From a virus (lineage: Duplodnaviria; Heunggongvirae; Uroviricota; Caudoviricetes), in IMG/VR virus record IMGVR_UViG_2651869781_000001: DNA of 5,662 bases, one strand, 5' to 3'. Shown here piece by piece: positions 1 to 4,009 of this stretch. The translations under genes and the position numbers were made by a program. The notes beneath the pieces were generated by a model. It saw only the letters and a list, made by a program, of their open reading frames with translations. It was not told where the DNA came from and searched no databases. The number at the start of each line of letters is the position of its first letter. The stretch's first letter is position 1.

Positions 1-1621
1 CTCAGCGGATATGCTCGCCAGTGCGCAGAAGGCATTTGATGAGGCGGATAAAAAATGGCAGTGGTACCAGAGCCGGAGCCAGCGCCGCGGTAAAACCTCC
101 TCTTTCCGGGCCAACCTTCAGGGCGCATGGAATGACCGGGAAAATGCCCGTCTGGGGCTGGCAGCGGCCACGCTGCAGTCGGATATGGAAAAAGCCGGTG
201 AACTGGCCGCCAGGGACCGGGCCGAACGGGACGCATCACAGCTGAAGTATACCGGAGAGGCGCAGAAGGCGTATGAGCGTCTGCTGACGCCGCTGGAGAA
301 ATATACCGCCCGTCAGGAAGAACTGAATAAGGCACTGAAAGACGGGAAAATCCTGCAGGCAGATTACAACACGCTGATGGCGGCGGCGAAAAAGGACTAT
401 GAAGCGACGCTGAAAAAGCCGAAACAGTCCGGCGTGAAGGTGTCTGCGGGCGATCGTCAGGAAGACAGTGCTCATGCTGCCCTGCTGACGCTTCAGGCAG
501 AACTCCGGATGCTGGAGAAGCATGCCGGAGCGAATGAGAAAATCAGCCAGCAGCGTCGCGATTTATGGAAAGCGGAAAATCAGTATGCGGTCCTGAAAGA
601 GGCAGCCACGAAACGGCAGTTATCTGAGCAGGAAAAATCCCTGCTGGCCCATGAGAAAGAGACGCTGGAGTACAAACGCCAGCTGGCTGAGCTGGGAGAC
701 AAAGTTGAACACCAGAAACGGCTGAATCAGCTGGCACAGCAGGCTGCGCGGTTTGAGCAGCAGCAGGGCGCGAAGCAGGCGGCAATCAGTGCCCAGGCGC
801 GGGGCCTCACCGACCGTCAGGCGCAGCGGGAGTCGGAAGAGCAGCGCCTTCGTGACGTGTACGGTGATAATCCGGATGCGCTGGCGAAGGCCACATCTGC
901 ACTGAAGAACACCTGGTCTGCGGAGGAGCAGCTTCGTGGAAGCTGGATGGCCGGTCTGAAGTCCGGCTGGGGCGAGTGGGCAGAAAGTGCGACGGACAGT
1001 TTTTCGCAGGTTAAAAGCGTGGCCACGCAGACCTTTGACGGTATTGCACAGAATATGGCAGCGATGCTGACCGGCAGCGAACAGAACTGGCGTGGTTTCA
1101 CCCGTTCTGTGCTCTCCATGCTGACAGAGATTTTTCTGAAGCAGGCGATGGTGGGGATAGTCGGGAGTATCGGCAGCGCCATTGGCGGTGCTTTCGGTGG
1201 TGGTGCGTCTGCCTCCACGGGGACGGCCATTCAGGCTGCGGCGGCGAACTTCCATTTCGCGACCGGGGGATTTACGGGGACGGGGGGTAAATATGAACCT
1301 GCGGGAATTGTTCATCGCGGGGAGTTTGTCTTCACGAAGGAAGCAACCAGCCGGATTGGCGTCGGCAACCTGTACCGCCTGATGCGGGGCTATGCGGAAG
1401 GTGGTTATGTGGGCGGTGCCGGAAGTCCGGCGCAGATGCGGCGGGCTGAAGGCATTAATTTTAATCAGAACAATCACGTGGTGATTCAGAACGACGGCAC
1501 CAACGGACAGGCGGGGCCACAGATGATGAAGGCAGTGTATGACATGGCCCGCAAGGGGGCGCAGGATGAAATTCAGACACAGATGCGTGATGGTGGCCTG
1601 TTCTCCGGAGGTGGACGATGA
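1..1621 (+). CDS. H: Tail tape measure protein, C-terminal ~540 codons (5'-partial; the frame is open from position 2 and continues upstream of the window)
   Basis: Frame-2 ORF open from the window edge (codons tca gcg gat atg...) to TGA at 1619-1621. Translation ends ...QMRDGGLFSGGGR and has the coiled-coil-like Ala/Gln/Lys/Glu-rich body and Gly-rich C-terminal segment I recall for lambda gpH. Stop overlaps the next ATG as ATGA. Gene order H-M-L-K-I-J. Confidence 0.9.
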   Translation, partial: SADMLASAQKAFDEADKKWQWYQSRSQRRGKTSSFRANLQGAWNDRENARLGLAAATLQSDMEKAGELAARDRAERDASQLKYTGEAQKAYERLLTPLEKYTARQEELNKALKDGKILQADYNTLMAAAKKDYEATLKKPKQSGVKVSAGDRQEDSAHAALLTLQAELRMLEKHAGANEKISQQRRDLWKAENQYAVLKEAATKRQLSEQEKSLLAHEKETLEYKRQLAELGDKVEHQKRLNQLAQQAARFEQQQGAKQAAISAQARGLTDRQAQRESEEQRLRDVYGDNPDALAKATSALKNTWSAEEQLRGSWMAGLKSGWGEWAESATDSFSQVKSVATQTFDGIAQNMAAMLTGSEQNWRGFTRSVLSMLTEIFLKQAMVGIVGSIGSAIGGAFGGGASASTGTAIQAAAANFHFATGGFTGTGGKYEPAGIVHRGEFVFTKEATSRIGVGNLYRLMRGYAEGGYVGGAGSPAQMRRAEGINFNQNNHVVIQNDGTNGQAGPQMMKAVYDMARKGAQDEIQTQMRDGGLFSGGGR

Positions 1622-1947: not shown

Positions 1948-2645
1948 TGCAGGATATCCGGCAGGAAACACTGAATGAATGCACCCGTGCGGAGCAGTCG
2001 GTCAGCGTGGTGCTCTGGGAAATCGACCTGACAGAGGTCGGTGGAGAACGTTATTTTTTCTGTAATGAGCAGAACGAAAAAGGTGAGCCGGTCACCTGGC
2101 AGGGGCGACAGTATCAGCCGTATCCCATTCAGGGGAGTGGTTTTGAACTGAATGGCAAAGGCACCAGTACGCGCCCCACGCTGACGGTTTCTAACCTGTA
2201 CGGTATGGTCACCGGGATGGCGGAAGATATGCAGAGTCTGGTCGGCGGAACGGTGGTCCGGCGTAAGGTTTACGCCCGTTTTCTGGATGCGGTGAACTTC
2301 GTTAACGGAAACAGTGACGCCGATCCGGAGCAGGAGGTGATCAGCCGCTGGCGCATCGAGCAGTGCAGCGAACTGAGCGCGGTGAGTGCCTCCTTTGTAC
2401 TGTCCACGCCGACGGAAACAGATGGCGCTGTTTTTCCGGGACGTATCATGCTGGCCAACACCTGCACCTGGACCTATCGCGGCGATGAGTGCGGTTATCA
2501 CGGTCCGGCGGTCGCGGATGAATATGACCAGCCAACGTCCGATATCACGAAGGATAAATGCAGCAAATGCCTGAGCGGTTGTAAGTTTCGCAATAACGTC
2601 GGCAACTTTGGCGGCTTCCTTTCCATTAACAAACTTTCGCAGTAA
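1947..2645 (+). CDS. L: Tail tip protein L (232 aa), with C-terminal cysteine cluster
   Basis: ORF 1947-2645, 232 aa (MQDIRQETLNECTRAEQ...SINKLSQ), same length and sequence as recalled for lambda gpL. AGGTGG at 1934-1939, 7 nt upstream of the ATG. C-terminal Cys at residues 173, 182, 205, 208 and 212. Confidence 0.9.
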   Translation: MQDIRQETLNECTRAEQSVSVVLWEIDLTEVGGERYFFCNEQNEKGEPVTWQGRQYQPYPIQGSGFELNGKGTSTRPTLTVSNLYGMVTGMAEDMQSLVGGTVVRRKVYARFLDAVNFVNGNSDADPEQEVISRWRIEQCSELSAVSASFVLSTPTETDGAVFPGRIMLANTCTWTYRGDECGYHGPAVADEYDQPTSDITKDKCSKCLSGCKFRNNVGNFGGFLSINKLSQ

Positions 2646-2650
2646 ATCCC

Positions 2651-3394
2651 ATGACAGAGACAGAATCAGCGATTCTGGCGCACGCCCGGCGATGTGCGCC
2701 AGCGGAGTCGTGCGGCTTCGTGGTGAGAACGCCGGAGGGGGAAAGATATTTTCCCTGCGTGAATATCTCCGGTGAGCCGGAGGATTATTTCCGGATGTCG
2801 CCGGAGGACTGGCTGCAGGCAGAGATGCAGGGTGAGATTGTGGCGCTGGTCCACAGTCATCCCGGTGGTCTGCCCTGGCTGAGTGAGGCCGACCGGCGGC
2901 TGCAGGTGCAGAGTGATTTGCCGTGGTGGCTGGTCTGCCGGGGGACGATTCACAAGTTCCGCTGTGTGCCGCATCTCACCGGGCGGCGCTTTGAGCACGG
3001 GGTGACGGACTGTTACACGCTGTTCCGGGACGCTTACCATCTGGCGGGGATTGAGATGCCGGATTTTACGCGGGAGGATGACTGGTGGCGTCACGGTCAG
3101 AATCTCTATCTGGATAATCTGGAGGCAACGGGGCTGTATCAGGTGCCGTTGTCAGCGGCGCAGCCGGGCGATGTGCTGCTGTGCTGCTTTGGTTCATCGG
3201 TGCCGAATCATGCCGCTATTTACTGTGGTGACGGCGAGCTGCTGCACCATATTCCTGAACAACTGAGCAAACGAGAGAGGTATACCGACAAATGGCAGCG
3301 ACGCACACACTCCCTCTGGCGTCACCGGGCATGGCACGCATCTGCCTTTACGGGGATTTACAACGATTTGGCCGCCGCATCGACCTTCGTGTGA
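2651..3394 (+). CDS. K: Tail tip assembly protein K, JAB/MPN (JAMM) metallopeptidase-like N-terminal domain plus NlpC/P60-like C-terminal domain. Long form 247 aa from ATG 2651; the lambda reference annotation as I recall it is 199 aa, corresponding to the internal ATG at 2795.
   Basis: ORF 2651-3394 has no stop from 6 nt after the L stop. A complete JAMM signature is visible: Glu19 in an ESCGF context (2705-2707) and His68-x-His70-x7-Ser78-x2-Asp81 (VHSHPGGLPWLSEAD, 2852-2893). A downstream Cys (VTDCYTLF) and His-rich stretch (PNHAAIYCGDGELLHH) are consistent with an NlpC/P60 fold. The internal ATG at 2795 has GGAGG at 2779-2783; the ATG at 2651 has no obvious Shine-Dalgarno sequence but sits 5 nt after the L stop. 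Confidence 0.85.
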   Translation: MTETESAILAHARRCAPAESCGFVVRTPEGERYFPCVNISGEPEDYFRMSPEDWLQAEMQGEIVALVHSHPGGLPWLSEADRRLQVQSDLPWWLVCRGTIHKFRCVPHLTGRRFEHGVTDCYTLFRDAYHLAGIEMPDFTREDDWWRHGQNLYLDNLEATGLYQVPLSAAQPGDVLLCCFGSSVPNHAAIYCGDGELLHHIPEQLSKRERYTDKWQRRTHSLWRHRAWHASAFTGIYNDLAAASTFV

Positions 3395-3963
3395 AAACGG
3401 GTGCTGAAGCCATCCGGGCGCTGGCCACACAGCTTCCGGCGTTTCGTCAGAAACTGAGCGACGGTTGGTATCAGGTACGGATTGCCGGGCGGGACGTCAG
3501 CACGTCCGGGTTAACGGCGCAGTTACATGATACTCTGCCTGATGGCGCTGTGATTCATATTGTTCCCAGAGTCGCCGGGGCCAAGTCAGGTGGCGTATTC
3601 CAGATTGTCCTGGGGGCTGCCGCCATTGCCGGATCATTCTTTACCGCCGGAGCCACCCTTGCAGCATGGGGGGCAGCCATTGGGGCCGGTGGTATGACCG
3701 GCATCCTGTTTTCTCTCGGTGCCAGTATGGTGCTCGGTGGTGTGGCGCAAATGCTGGCACCGAAAGCCAGAACTCCCCGTACACAGACAACGGATAACGG
3801 CAAACAAAACACCTATTTCTCCTCACTGGATAACATGGTTGCCCAGGGCAATGTTCTGCCGGTTCTGTACGGTGAAATGCGCGTGGGGTCACGCGTGGTT
3901 TCTCAGGAGATCAGCACGGCAGACGAAGGGGACGGTGGTCAGGTTGTGGTGATTGGCCGCTGA
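3292..3963 (+). CDS. I: Tail tip assembly protein I (223 aa): N-terminal ubiquitin-like (beta-grasp) region ending in Gly-Gly, followed by a Gly/Ala-rich hydrophobic C-terminal segment
   Basis: ORF 3292-3963, 223 aa (MAATHTLPLASPGMARICLYG...QVVVIGR), same length and sequence as recalled for lambda gpI. Overlaps the 3' end of K by 103 nt in a different frame. Purine-rich GAGAGAGG at 3273-3280 upstream of the ATG. Confidence 0.88.
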   Translation: MAATHTLPLASPGMARICLYGDLQRFGRRIDLRVKTGAEAIRALATQLPAFRQKLSDGWYQVRIAGRDVSTSGLTAQLHDTLPDGAVIHIVPRVAGAKSGGVFQIVLGAAAIAGSFFTAGATLAAWGAAIGAGGMTGILFSLGASMVLGGVAQMLAPKARTPRTQTTDNGKQNTYFSSLDNMVAQGNVLPVLYGEMRVGSRVVSQEISTADEGDGGQVVVIGR

Positions 3964-3981
3964 TGCAAAATATTTCATGTG

Positions 3982-4009
3982 AAACCGCCTCCGGGCGGTT
4001 TTGTCGTTT
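3982..4009 (+). terminator. Perfect 8-bp inverted repeat (AAACCGCC / GGCGGTTT) with 4-nt loop, followed by a T-rich tract (TGTCGTTT); terminator-like or mRNA stem-loop in the I-J intergenic spacer
   Basis: Read directly: AAACCGCC at 3982-3989, loop TCCG at 3990-3993, GGCGGTTT at 3994-4001, then TGTCGTTT. The GC core of the stem is short (5 bp), so terminator function is uncertain. Confidence 0.3.

What the first reader, a model, noticed from the sequence alone, without database searches (positions are those of the whole stretch)
2651..3963. Adjacent JAB/MPN-NlpC/P60 protein (K) and ubiquitin-like protein with internal Gly-Gly (I): a ubiquitin-like processing pair
I has an N-terminal region that ends in ...IHIVPRVAGAKSGG (Gly100-Gly101, nt 3589-3594), reminiscent of a ubiquitin C-terminal diglycine, followed by a hydrophobic tail. 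K upstream carries a JAMM-type peptidase signature plus a Cys/His papain-like domain. To my recollection, comparative-genomics work has proposed that the K JAB domain processes or conjugates the I ubiquitin-like domain during tail tip assembly, but I do not think this has been biochemically settled. The sequence features here fit that hypothesis.
Basis: partly seen in the sequence, partly recalled or inferred. Interest (0 to 1): 0.5.

Follow-up and report, generated by a model that had tools for sequence, protein, structure and literature searches.

The report
Lambda tail-tip protease and plug precursor
These are the classic tail-tip assembly genes K and I of a lambda-like phage: K carries two conserved protease domains, and I starts with a ubiquitin-like domain that is missing from finished tails, so K probably clips it off, an idea published in 2006 and still unproven at the bench.

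Summary

It gains indirect support: lambda virions show only the C-terminal part of gpI and no gpK, and in F-pyocin the N-terminal part of the homologous plug protein is removed by an unidentified protease.

One correction is needed. Gly100-Gly101 is present in only 41 of 90 motif variants, and the F-pyocin protein lacks it. The near-invariant element is P92-x3-G96-[A/S]97, which aligns with the terminal Gly-Gly of MoaD and SAMP1. I therefore predict cleavage at or next to A97.

Cleavage by K is inferred, not shown. Conjugation has no support.

The parts
2651..3394 (+). Gene K, full-length 247-aa form: tail-tip assembly protein with two peptidase domains
   Evidence: ORF list. The 247-aa form is the majority form in databases. 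97-98% identical to lambdoid K proteins.
2660..2962 (+). K JAB/MPN+ domain (residues 4-104)
2705..2707 (+). Glu19 of the JAMM motif (E-x-C-G)
   Evidence: Invariant in 30 K relatives down to 31% identity.
2852..2893 (+). JAMM zinc-site motif H68-S-H70-x7-S78-x2-D81
   Evidence: Regex match. H68, H70 and D81 are invariant and S78 is at least 90% conserved.
2981..3322 (+). K NlpC/P60 (papain-like) domain, residues 111-224, with C121 (3011-3013), H187 (3209-3211) and H199 (3245-3247)
3292..3394 (+). K/I overlap (103 nt; 64 nt if I starts at 3331); I is in the -1 frame relative to K
3292..3963 (+). Gene I (223 aa as annotated in lambda; alternative start at 3331, Met14): precursor of the tail-tip plug protein
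   Evidence: 221 of 223 residues identical to lambda gpI (PDB 8iyk chain I). Pfam Lambda_tail_I.
3331..3582 (+). I ubiquitin-like beta-grasp domain (residues 14-97), MoaD/ThiS/SAMP class
3565..3582 (+). Near-invariant end of the Ubl: P92-R-V-A-G96-A97. Predicted recognition and cleavage element, equivalent to PPV[ST]GG of MoaD and SAMP1
   Evidence: P92 in 78 of 81 and G96 in 76 of 81 representatives. 111 of 113 Ubl-bearing homologues have P-x3-G, and position 97 is A or S in 83 of 90 variants. hhalign aligns G96 with the penultimate Gly of MoaD and SAMP1, with weak statistics.
3583..3594 (+).
   Evidence: pLDDT below 50 in both AF2 models. G100 in 50 of 81 and G101 in 60 of 81 representatives. 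Exact GG in 41 of 90 variants.
3595..3747 (+). Two hydrophobic helices (about residues 102-152; H1 and H2 in the lambda tail structure)
   Evidence: Hydropathy 1.2-1.6. AF2 helices at I residues 102-118 and 123-147. Described as putative transmembrane helices that surround the gpH C-terminus (PMC11101478).
3748..3960 (+). C-terminal plug / beta-augmentation domain that stays in the virion
   Evidence: Lambda cryo-EM models cover gpI 134/135-223 or 101-223. PDB 9e7m chains match residues 133-222.

Best explanation
This is the K-I gene pair of a lambda-type siphophage.

gpI is made as a precursor. An N-terminal MoaD/SAMP-like ubiquitin-fold domain (residues about 14-97) is joined by a short flexible linker to a hydrophobic helical hairpin and a C-terminal plug domain.

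Inferred role of the Ubl: it keeps the hydrophobic part soluble or assembly-competent, and it blocks premature joining of the tip to the tape measure and tube.

Once gpI is seated in the J-L tip complex, the Ubl is cut off. Only the C-terminal fragment remains in the virion. There it forms a trimer that plugs the tip lumen and holds the C-terminus of gpH.

gpK is the most likely protease. It is an essential, non-structural assembly factor. Its JAMM metalloprotease domain, closest to archaeal desampylases, would bind the Ubl body and cut at the end of the conserved P-x3-G96-A97 tail. The predicted scissile bond is A97|K98, by register with MoaD and SAMP1. G101|V102 is the alternative.

The NlpC/P60 domain is also catalytically intact, but its substrate is unknown.

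What is shown here: domain identities, active-site conservation, the predicted Ubl fold, and gene linkage.
What is inferred: K is the protease, JAB is the acting domain, and the exact cleavage site.
For: (1) K domains and motifs: Pfam JAB plus NlpC/P60. E19, H68, H70, D81, C121, H187 and H199 are invariant in 30 relatives down to 31% identity.

(3) Linkage: in 58 of 60 related loci a K with both domains lies upstream of an I that carries the Ubl. One exception has no upstream sequence. In most loci the I start codon overlaps or abuts the K stop. All 120 listed K-profile hits carry both Pfam domains.

(4) The linker, residues 96/97-102/103, is predicted disordered and therefore accessible.

(5) Lambda virions: gpI is modelled only from residue 134/135 or 101. 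gpK was not detected by mass spectrometry. The single gpI peptide reported (9.87% coverage) can only be residues 202-223.

(6) F-pyocin: the N-terminal region of PA0640 is absent from mature particles but present in assembly-stalled mutants. Deletion of PA0639 gives tubes without tips. The PA0639 homologue has intact JAMM and NlpC motifs directly upstream of the plug gene.

(7) The same proposal was made from comparative genomics in 2006.
Against: No experiment links K to the cleavage. The F-pyocin authors state that the protease is unknown, and that recombinant PA0640 expressed alone loses its N-terminus to host proteases.

Missing cryo-EM density and a single mass-spectrometry peptide are weak evidence that the Ubl is absent from lambda virions.

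The residue at the predicted P1 position is Ala or Ser rather than the canonical Gly.

An AF2 model of a natural K-I frameshift fusion showed no ordering of the linker, that is, no docking signal. This test has little power.

The loci sampled are not independent, because many are close relatives.
Confidence: 0.55

Rival explanations
1. The Ubl is removed, but not by the JAB domain. Either K's papain-like NlpC/P60 domain acts as the Ubl-specific protease, as cysteine DUBs do, or a host protease trims an intrinsically unstable N-terminal domain. In that case JAB has another substrate or a non-catalytic role.
For: The NlpC/P60 triad is as strictly conserved as the JAMM site. Iyer et al. raised this option. 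PA0640 expressed alone in E. coli loses its N-terminus to host proteases.
Against: The structural neighbours of the NlpC/P60 domain are peptidoglycan DL-endopeptidases, not DUBs. The nearest relatives of the JAB domain are enzymes that cut MoaD/SAMP-type Ubls after their C-terminal Gly. The near-invariant G-[A/S] at the Ubl end suggests a specific recognition site rather than non-specific trimming.
Confidence: 0.17
2. There is no cleavage. The Ubl stays attached in the virion but is flexible and invisible to cryo-EM, and K is a chaperone whose peptidase motifs serve another purpose.
For: Ge and Wang treat the N-terminal domain as 'unresolved' and speculate that it has a role at infection. Lambda virion mass spectrometry found only one gpI peptide, so the absence of Ubl peptides is weak evidence.
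Against: In F-pyocin, N-terminal peptides are found in stalled precursors but not in mature particles. No lambda reconstruction reports density for three extra 10-kDa domains, and the tip lumen where gpI sits is described as holding only the gpI C-terminal trimer and the gpH coiled coil (the argument from space is my inference). Strict conservation of two catalytic sites argues for catalysis.
Confidence: 0.1
3. K's deubiquitinase-like domains are mainly a counter-defence. They would strip host Ubl (Bil-type) conjugates from the central tail fibre.
Against: K is required for tail assembly in lambda. Its homologue is required in F-pyocin, where the paper reports the defect without reference to any Bil system. 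K is linked to an I that carries its own Ubl in cis in 58 of 60 loci, which is unlike the sporadic distribution expected of anti-defence genes.
Confidence: 0.05
4. Conjugation: after release, the I Ubl is covalently attached to another tail protein, as ubiquitin or SAMP would be.
For: The fold is the MoaD/SAMP class, and some members of that class are conjugated.
Against: The window and related loci contain tail genes only, with no E1 or E2. The predicted new C-terminus would be G-A or G-S in most homologues, not G-G. No Ubl density or mass was reported on lambda tail proteins.
Confidence: 0.03
5. K is a virion-associated cell-wall hydrolase that is used during DNA injection.
For: The NlpC/P60 domain resembles peptidoglycan endopeptidases. 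NCBIfam gives a weak match to 'putative phage cell wall peptidase'.
Against: gpK was not detected in virions by mass spectrometry or cryo-EM in three independent studies, and the homologue is absent from F-pyocin particles.
Confidence: 0.04

Closest known systems
Phage lambda gpK (tail tip assembly protein K) and gpI (tail tip assembly protein I)
   Same: Same genes. The gene order is H-M-L-K-I-J. gpI is 221/223 identical to lambda gpI, and K is 97-98% identical to common lambdoid K proteins. The K/I overlap is the same.
   Different: The window as a whole is only about 92% identical in DNA to the nearest deposited phages, so this is a lambdoid mosaic or prophage rather than lambda itself. RefSeq annotates lambda K as 199 aa, which lacks the first 48 residues of the JAB domain.
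TAPI/TAPK 'phage tail assembly associated Ub' system of Iyer, Burroughs and Aravind 2006 (PMC1779556)
   Same: Exactly the proposed system: a Ubl with a conserved C-terminal glycine, next to a JAB plus NlpC/P60 protein predicted to release it.
   Different: Nothing differs in kind.
Archaeal SAMP1 / JAMM desampylase pairs (HvJAMM1; P. furiosus JAMM1-SAMP2)
   Same: A MoaD-type beta-grasp Ubl paired with a minimal JAMM/MPN+ protease. HvJAMM1 cleaves a linear Ubl-protein fusion just after the terminal Gly. These are the closest structural neighbours of both K-JAB and I-Ubl.
   Different: SAMPs end in Gly-Gly, are activated by an E1 and are conjugated. gpI has G-A followed in cis by its own cargo, and there is no E1. 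K also carries an NlpC/P60 domain. Sequence similarity is below the NCBIfam cut-off, so this is an analogue or distant homologue, not a member.
Bacterial sulfur-carrier processing pairs Mec+/CysO and QbsD/QbsE (from my own knowledge; discussed in PMC1779556)
   Different: Those reactions expose a Gly-Gly for thiocarboxylate chemistry. Here the released C-terminal fragment, not the Ubl, is the functional product.
F-pyocin PA0639 / PA0640 (tip plug protein)
   Same: Homologous pair. The plug protein has the Ubl, the hydrophobic helices and the plug domain. Its N-terminus is removed during maturation, and the K homologue is essential and non-structural. The K homologue has JAMM and NlpC motifs.
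   Different: This is a tailocin, not a phage. The linker reads G-S-K-Q-S-G, with no Gly-Gly.
[quoted passage not shown]
   Same: It occupies the same lumenal position and has the same plug role as the gpI C-terminal trimer.
   Different: It is an insertion within the hub protein, and the paper mentions no Ubl pro-domain for it. I did not check whether T5 has a K-type protease.

Membership tests
JAMM/MPN+ metalloproteases (Pfam Prok-JAB, PF14464) | Significant match to the family profile | tested here: met
   E 3.4e-14, 53.1 bits against a cut-off of 25, residues 4-104.
JAMM/MPN+ metalloproteases (Pfam Prok-JAB, PF14464) | Catalytic motif E-x(n)-H-[ST]-H-x7-S-x2-D | tested here: met
   E19 and H68-S-H70-x7-S78-x2-D81. 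E19, H68, H70 and D81 are invariant in 30 relatives.
JAMM/MPN+ metalloproteases (Pfam Prok-JAB, PF14464) | MPN fold | tested here: met
JAMM/MPN+ metalloproteases (Pfam Prok-JAB, PF14464) | Zn2+-dependent (iso)peptidase activity on a Ubl C-terminus | not testable with these tools
   This needs biochemistry with purified gpK and gpI.
NlpC/P60 (C40) papain-like peptidases | Profile match and fold | tested here: met
NlpC/P60 (C40) papain-like peptidases | Cys-His-(His/polar) catalytic triad | tested here: met
   C121, H187 and H199 are invariant and H200 is at least 90% conserved.
ThiS/MoaD/SAMP-type ubiquitin-like beta-grasp proteins | Beta-grasp fold | tested here: met
ThiS/MoaD/SAMP-type ubiquitin-like beta-grasp proteins | C-terminal Gly-Gly at the end of the last strand's tail | tested here: inconclusive
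   The aligned positions are G96-A97. G96 is near-invariant, and position 97 is A or S in 83 of 90 variants and G in 3. The G100-G101 dipeptide is four residues further on and is present in only 41 of 90 variants.
ThiS/MoaD/SAMP-type ubiquitin-like beta-grasp proteins | Free C-terminus activated by an E1-like adenylyltransferase | tested here: not met
   The Ubl is internal, with 126 residues following it. No E1-like gene is present in the window or in the related tail loci. I therefore describe it as a Ubl domain, not as a sulfur carrier or a modifier.
Pfam Lambda_tail_I (PF06805) / PHROG 32 tail assembly protein | Profile match | tested here: met
   E 4.4e-28. phrog_32, E 2.4e-83.
Ubiquitin-like conjugation systems (Bil, Bub, type II CBASS, SAMP) | E1 and E2 enzymes encoded with the Ubl and the DUB | tested here: not met
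   The locus contains only tail structural and assembly genes (H, M, L, K, I, J).

The most novel reading that the evidence does not exclude
gpK may be a two-headed maturation protease with two different substrates. Its JAMM domain would release the Ubl from gpI. Its equally conserved NlpC/P60 domain would carry out a second, still unassigned cleavage in tail maturation. The obvious candidate is the gpH-to-gpH* cut in the glycine-rich C-terminal region of the tape measure, for which no protease is known. My evidence neither supports nor excludes this. K is absent from finished virions. From my own knowledge of the lambda tail assembly pathway, K is thought to act before H joins the tip, which argues against the idea.
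Probability: 0.07. Interest if true: 0.65.

Novelty: already known. Interest (0 to 1): 0.3.

Why it matters
gpK and gpI are among the last lambda tail proteins without a demonstrated biochemical role.

If K's JAMM domain does remove a ubiquitin-fold pro-domain from the plug protein, two things follow. It would be a proteolytic checkpoint in siphophage and F-tailocin tail-tip assembly. It would also be a clear case of a Ubl/JAMM pair working without any conjugation machinery, which bears on how ubiquitin-type systems arose.

For this window nothing new is at stake: the genes are essentially lambda's and the idea dates from 2006.

The useful output is a sharper prediction. The conserved determinant is P92-x3-G96-A97, not Gly100-Gly101. 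The expected mature N-terminus is K98. A set of mutants follows directly from this.

Tried and rejected
(1) In-silico docking of the I tail into the K active site. No multimer tool was available, so I folded a natural frameshift K-I fusion (P0151). The first two block alignments were misaligned by MAFFT (A3 and A4). The usable one (A6) gave pTM 0.38, and the linker stayed below pLDDT 50. The result is uninformative, and coordinates are not returned.

(3) The search for related loci with diverse I alignments failed because no stretch was conserved enough. Two single-seed scans found nothing. Context sampling therefore rests on 60 loci that are partly redundant.

(4) A programmed -1 frameshift from K into I was considered, because I lies in the -1 frame and overlaps K by 103 nt. 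I rejected it for two reasons. The database K-I fusions are singletons with different junctions, some carrying extra frameshifts or deletions. By eye I saw no slippery heptamer in the overlap.

(5) Literature searches for a direct biochemical test of gpK on gpI found none. One promising title, on phage proteases activating CBASS, concerns prohead proteases.

(6) Rfam found no RNA family in the window.

(7) P0288, a 2783-aa 'homologue' with 23 matched stretches, is a spurious repetitive protein.

Full report
**What the window is.** The 5662-base window carries, on the + strand, the end of a tape-measure gene (11-1621; Pfam Tape_meas_lam_C), M (1618-1947), L (1947-2645), K (2651-3394), I (3292-3963) and the start of J at about 4026. 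The whole window is about 92% identical in DNA to lambdoid Escherichia phages. The I product is 221/223 identical to lambda gpI as deposited in PDB 8iyk. The finding therefore concerns the lambda K and I genes in a lambdoid mosaic.

**Checking the observation.**
- K is 247 aa. It matches Pfam Prok-JAB at residues 4-104 (E 3.4e-14) and NLPC_P60 at residues 111-224 (E 2.3e-13).
- The JAMM signature is complete: E19 (in A-E-S-C-G) and H68-S-H70-x7-S78-x2-D81. The papain-like nucleophile is C121.
- I contains ...IHIVPRVAGAKSGG, with G100-G101 encoded by nt 3589-3594, followed by a hydrophobic stretch.
- K and I overlap by 103 nt, and I lies in the -1 frame.
- gpI has four GG dipeptides, so the dipeptide alone is not beyond chance. 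The evidence lies in fold, conservation and context.

**K in detail.** I aligned 30 K relatives reaching 31% identity, drawn from Enterobacteria, Pseudomonas, Burkholderia, Acinetobacter, Moraxella, Psychrobacter and T1-like phages.
- The invariant residues are E19, C21, G22, H68, H70 and D81 in the JAB half, and D120, C121, H187 and H199 in the NlpC/P60 half. S78 and H200 are at least 90% conserved. Both active sites are therefore under selection.
- A profile search returned 1273 relatives, and all 120 listed carry both Pfam domains.
- The NlpC/P60 half resembles the peptidoglycan DL-endopeptidases CwlO, LytE and MepS.
- The best NCBIfam match to the JAB half is 'desampylase', below its curated cut-off.

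**I in detail.** AF2 of residues 14-103 with a 64-sequence alignment gave pLDDT 85.7 and pTM 0.73. The strand and helix order fits a beta-grasp, and the tail is disordered from residue 97.
More precisely, the domain belongs to the ThiS/MoaD/SAMP class, as Iyer et al. inferred from sequence.
- Downstream come two hydrophobic helices (about 102-152) and the C-terminal domain.

- Among 81 representatives of 50%-identity clusters, P92 is present in 78, G96 in 76, G100 in 50, G101 in 60 and G108 in 77.
- Among 113 homologues with a complete Ubl, 111 have P-x3-G. These give 90 distinct variants of the motif region.
- In those variants the residue after G96 is A (63), S (20), G (3) or other (4). Exact GG at positions 100-101 occurs in 41 of 90. 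Any GG within six residues occurs in 54 of 90.
- Phages whose K has an intact JAMM motif can have AG (HK75, Pseudomonas CF121c), SG (Klebsiella HJK1), EG (Moraxella Mcat15) or NS at these positions. ES18-like phages have no linker glycine at all (PVVEGA-LTAAAAAW).
- Profile alignment to E. coli MoaD and H. volcanii SAMP1 puts gpI G96 opposite the penultimate glycine of their terminal GG (DG..I.IVPRVAG against DGDEVAFFPPVTGG).
- The structural equivalent of ubiquitin's diglycine is therefore G96-A97, not G100-G101. The predicted scissile bond is A97|K98, with G101|V102 as the alternative.

**Gene context.** Of 60 related loci, 58 have a K with both domains upstream of an I that carries the Ubl. 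The loci comprise IMG/VR contigs, ten annotated phages and eight bacterial genomes. They are partly redundant.
- The exceptions are a locus that begins inside I, and a Holophagaceae MAG in which the tape-measure gene directly precedes I.
- In most loci the I start codon overlaps or abuts the K stop. Lambda-like and ES18-like phages overlap by 49-64 nt or more. HK97-like, Mcat15-like and Pseudomonas phages carry a small inserted ORF between the two genes.

**What the literature adds.**
- The hypothesis is that of Iyer, Burroughs and Aravind (2006). [quoted passage not shown]
- Cryo-EM of lambda models gpI only from residue 135 (PMC10721106), from 134 (PMC12617516), or from 101 in the closed tail (PMC11101478). 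It forms a trimer that plugs the tip lumen and holds the gpH C-terminus.
- gpK was not found in virions.
- The virion mass-spectrometry table lists one gpI peptide with 9.87% coverage. The only tryptic product of that length is residues 202-223.
- A 2026 preprint on F-pyocin gives the strongest evidence. [quoted passage not shown] The authors call this a proteolytic checkpoint and state that the cleavage mechanism is unknown. Deleting the gpK homologue PA0639 gives tubes without tips (10.64898/2026.02.24.707460).
- I found that the PA0639 homologue has intact JAMM and NlpC/P60 motifs immediately upstream of a plug gene identical to the PDB chain. That plug protein reads PLVIGSKQSG, with no Gly-Gly.
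- A direct precedent for the chemistry exists. HvJAMM1 cleaves a linear SAMP1-MoaE fusion exactly after the terminal Gly of SAMP1, in vitro and in vivo (PMC4443979).

**Most likely mechanism and its standing.** gpI is a precursor. Its MoaD/SAMP-like Ubl is removed once the protein is built into the tip, most probably by the JAMM domain of the non-structural assembly factor gpK, at the conserved G96-A97 tail. The retained fragment is the plug.
- My rough confidence in each step: removal of the Ubl about 0.8; K as the protease about 0.6; JAB rather than NlpC/P60 as the acting domain, and the exact site, are less certain. Overall confidence is 0.55.
- The rivals are cleavage by the NlpC/P60 domain or by host proteases, no cleavage at all, an anti-Bil counter-defence role (speculated by Hör et al.), conjugation, and a virion cell-wall hydrolase role. 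Each is listed with its evidence in the rivals section.
- The counter-defence and hydrolase readings are weakened by K being essential for assembly and absent from virions. Conjugation is weakened by the lack of E1 and E2 genes and by the G-A terminus.

**Verdict.** Novelty: already known. Interest: modest.

Noticed in passing
window 2651-2794 (K residues 1-48): RefSeq lambda annotates K as 14276..14875 (199 aa). That start corresponds to window 2795 (Met49) and leaves a 148-nt gap after L. It removes the first 48 residues of the JAB domain, including the catalytic Glu19. The 247-aa ORF is the majority form in protein databases.
   Followed up: yes
window 3292-3333: The start of I is ambiguous. 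Nearly all distant homologues begin at the equivalent of Met14 (3331), and one close relative (L001) has only that start. The annotated start at 3292 adds 13 residues and has a GAGAGG Shine-Dalgarno-like element 12 nt upstream. I saw no Shine-Dalgarno element before 3331.
   Followed up: partly
proteins P0151, P0210, P0135, P0234, P0017, P0014, P0029; PHROGs 28576 and 35166: K-I and JAB-I 'fusion proteins' in public databases are singletons with different junctions. Some carry additional frameshifts, and one is a deletion that destroys both domains. They look like sequencing errors or decaying prophages rather than true domain fusions. Two PHROG families appear to be built on such fusions.
   Followed up: partly
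window 3981-4008: A GC-rich hairpin (GAAACCGCC-UCCG-GGCGGUUUU) followed by a U-rich run lies between the I stop (3963) and the J start (about 4026). Its energy is -17.2 kcal/mol, z -2.8 against shuffles. The simple terminator scan did not list it. The HK75 record annotates terminators on both sides of its I gene.
   Followed up: partly
L045, L047, L052 and L028-L038 (between K and I): HK97-like (HK75), Pseudomonas and Moraxella Mcat15-like phages have a 170-770 nt insertion between K and I. The annotated records show a small ORF of unknown function there. This breaks the otherwise tight K-I coupling.
   Followed up: no
window 11-1621 (gpH C-terminus), glycine-rich stretch at roughly 1170-1330: This is the glycine-rich region (…GGAFGGGASAS…ATGGFTGTGGKYEPAG…) in which gpH is reported to be cut to gpH*. 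The 2025 Ur-lambda paper states that the site and the protease are unknown. K, with two conserved peptidase domains, is an untested candidate.
   Followed up: no
window 2400-2645 (gpL C-terminus): A cluster of five cysteines (CTWTYRGDEC…CSKCLSGC) corresponds to the region of the 4Fe-4S site reported for lambda gpL.
   Followed up: no
L060 775-3642 (Holophagaceae MAG): An I homologue with a Ubl directly follows the tape-measure gene. No K, L or M lies within 3 kb upstream. Its motif reads PVMVAAGG, with G96 replaced by Ala. This is a possible natural case of I without an adjacent K.
   Followed up: partly
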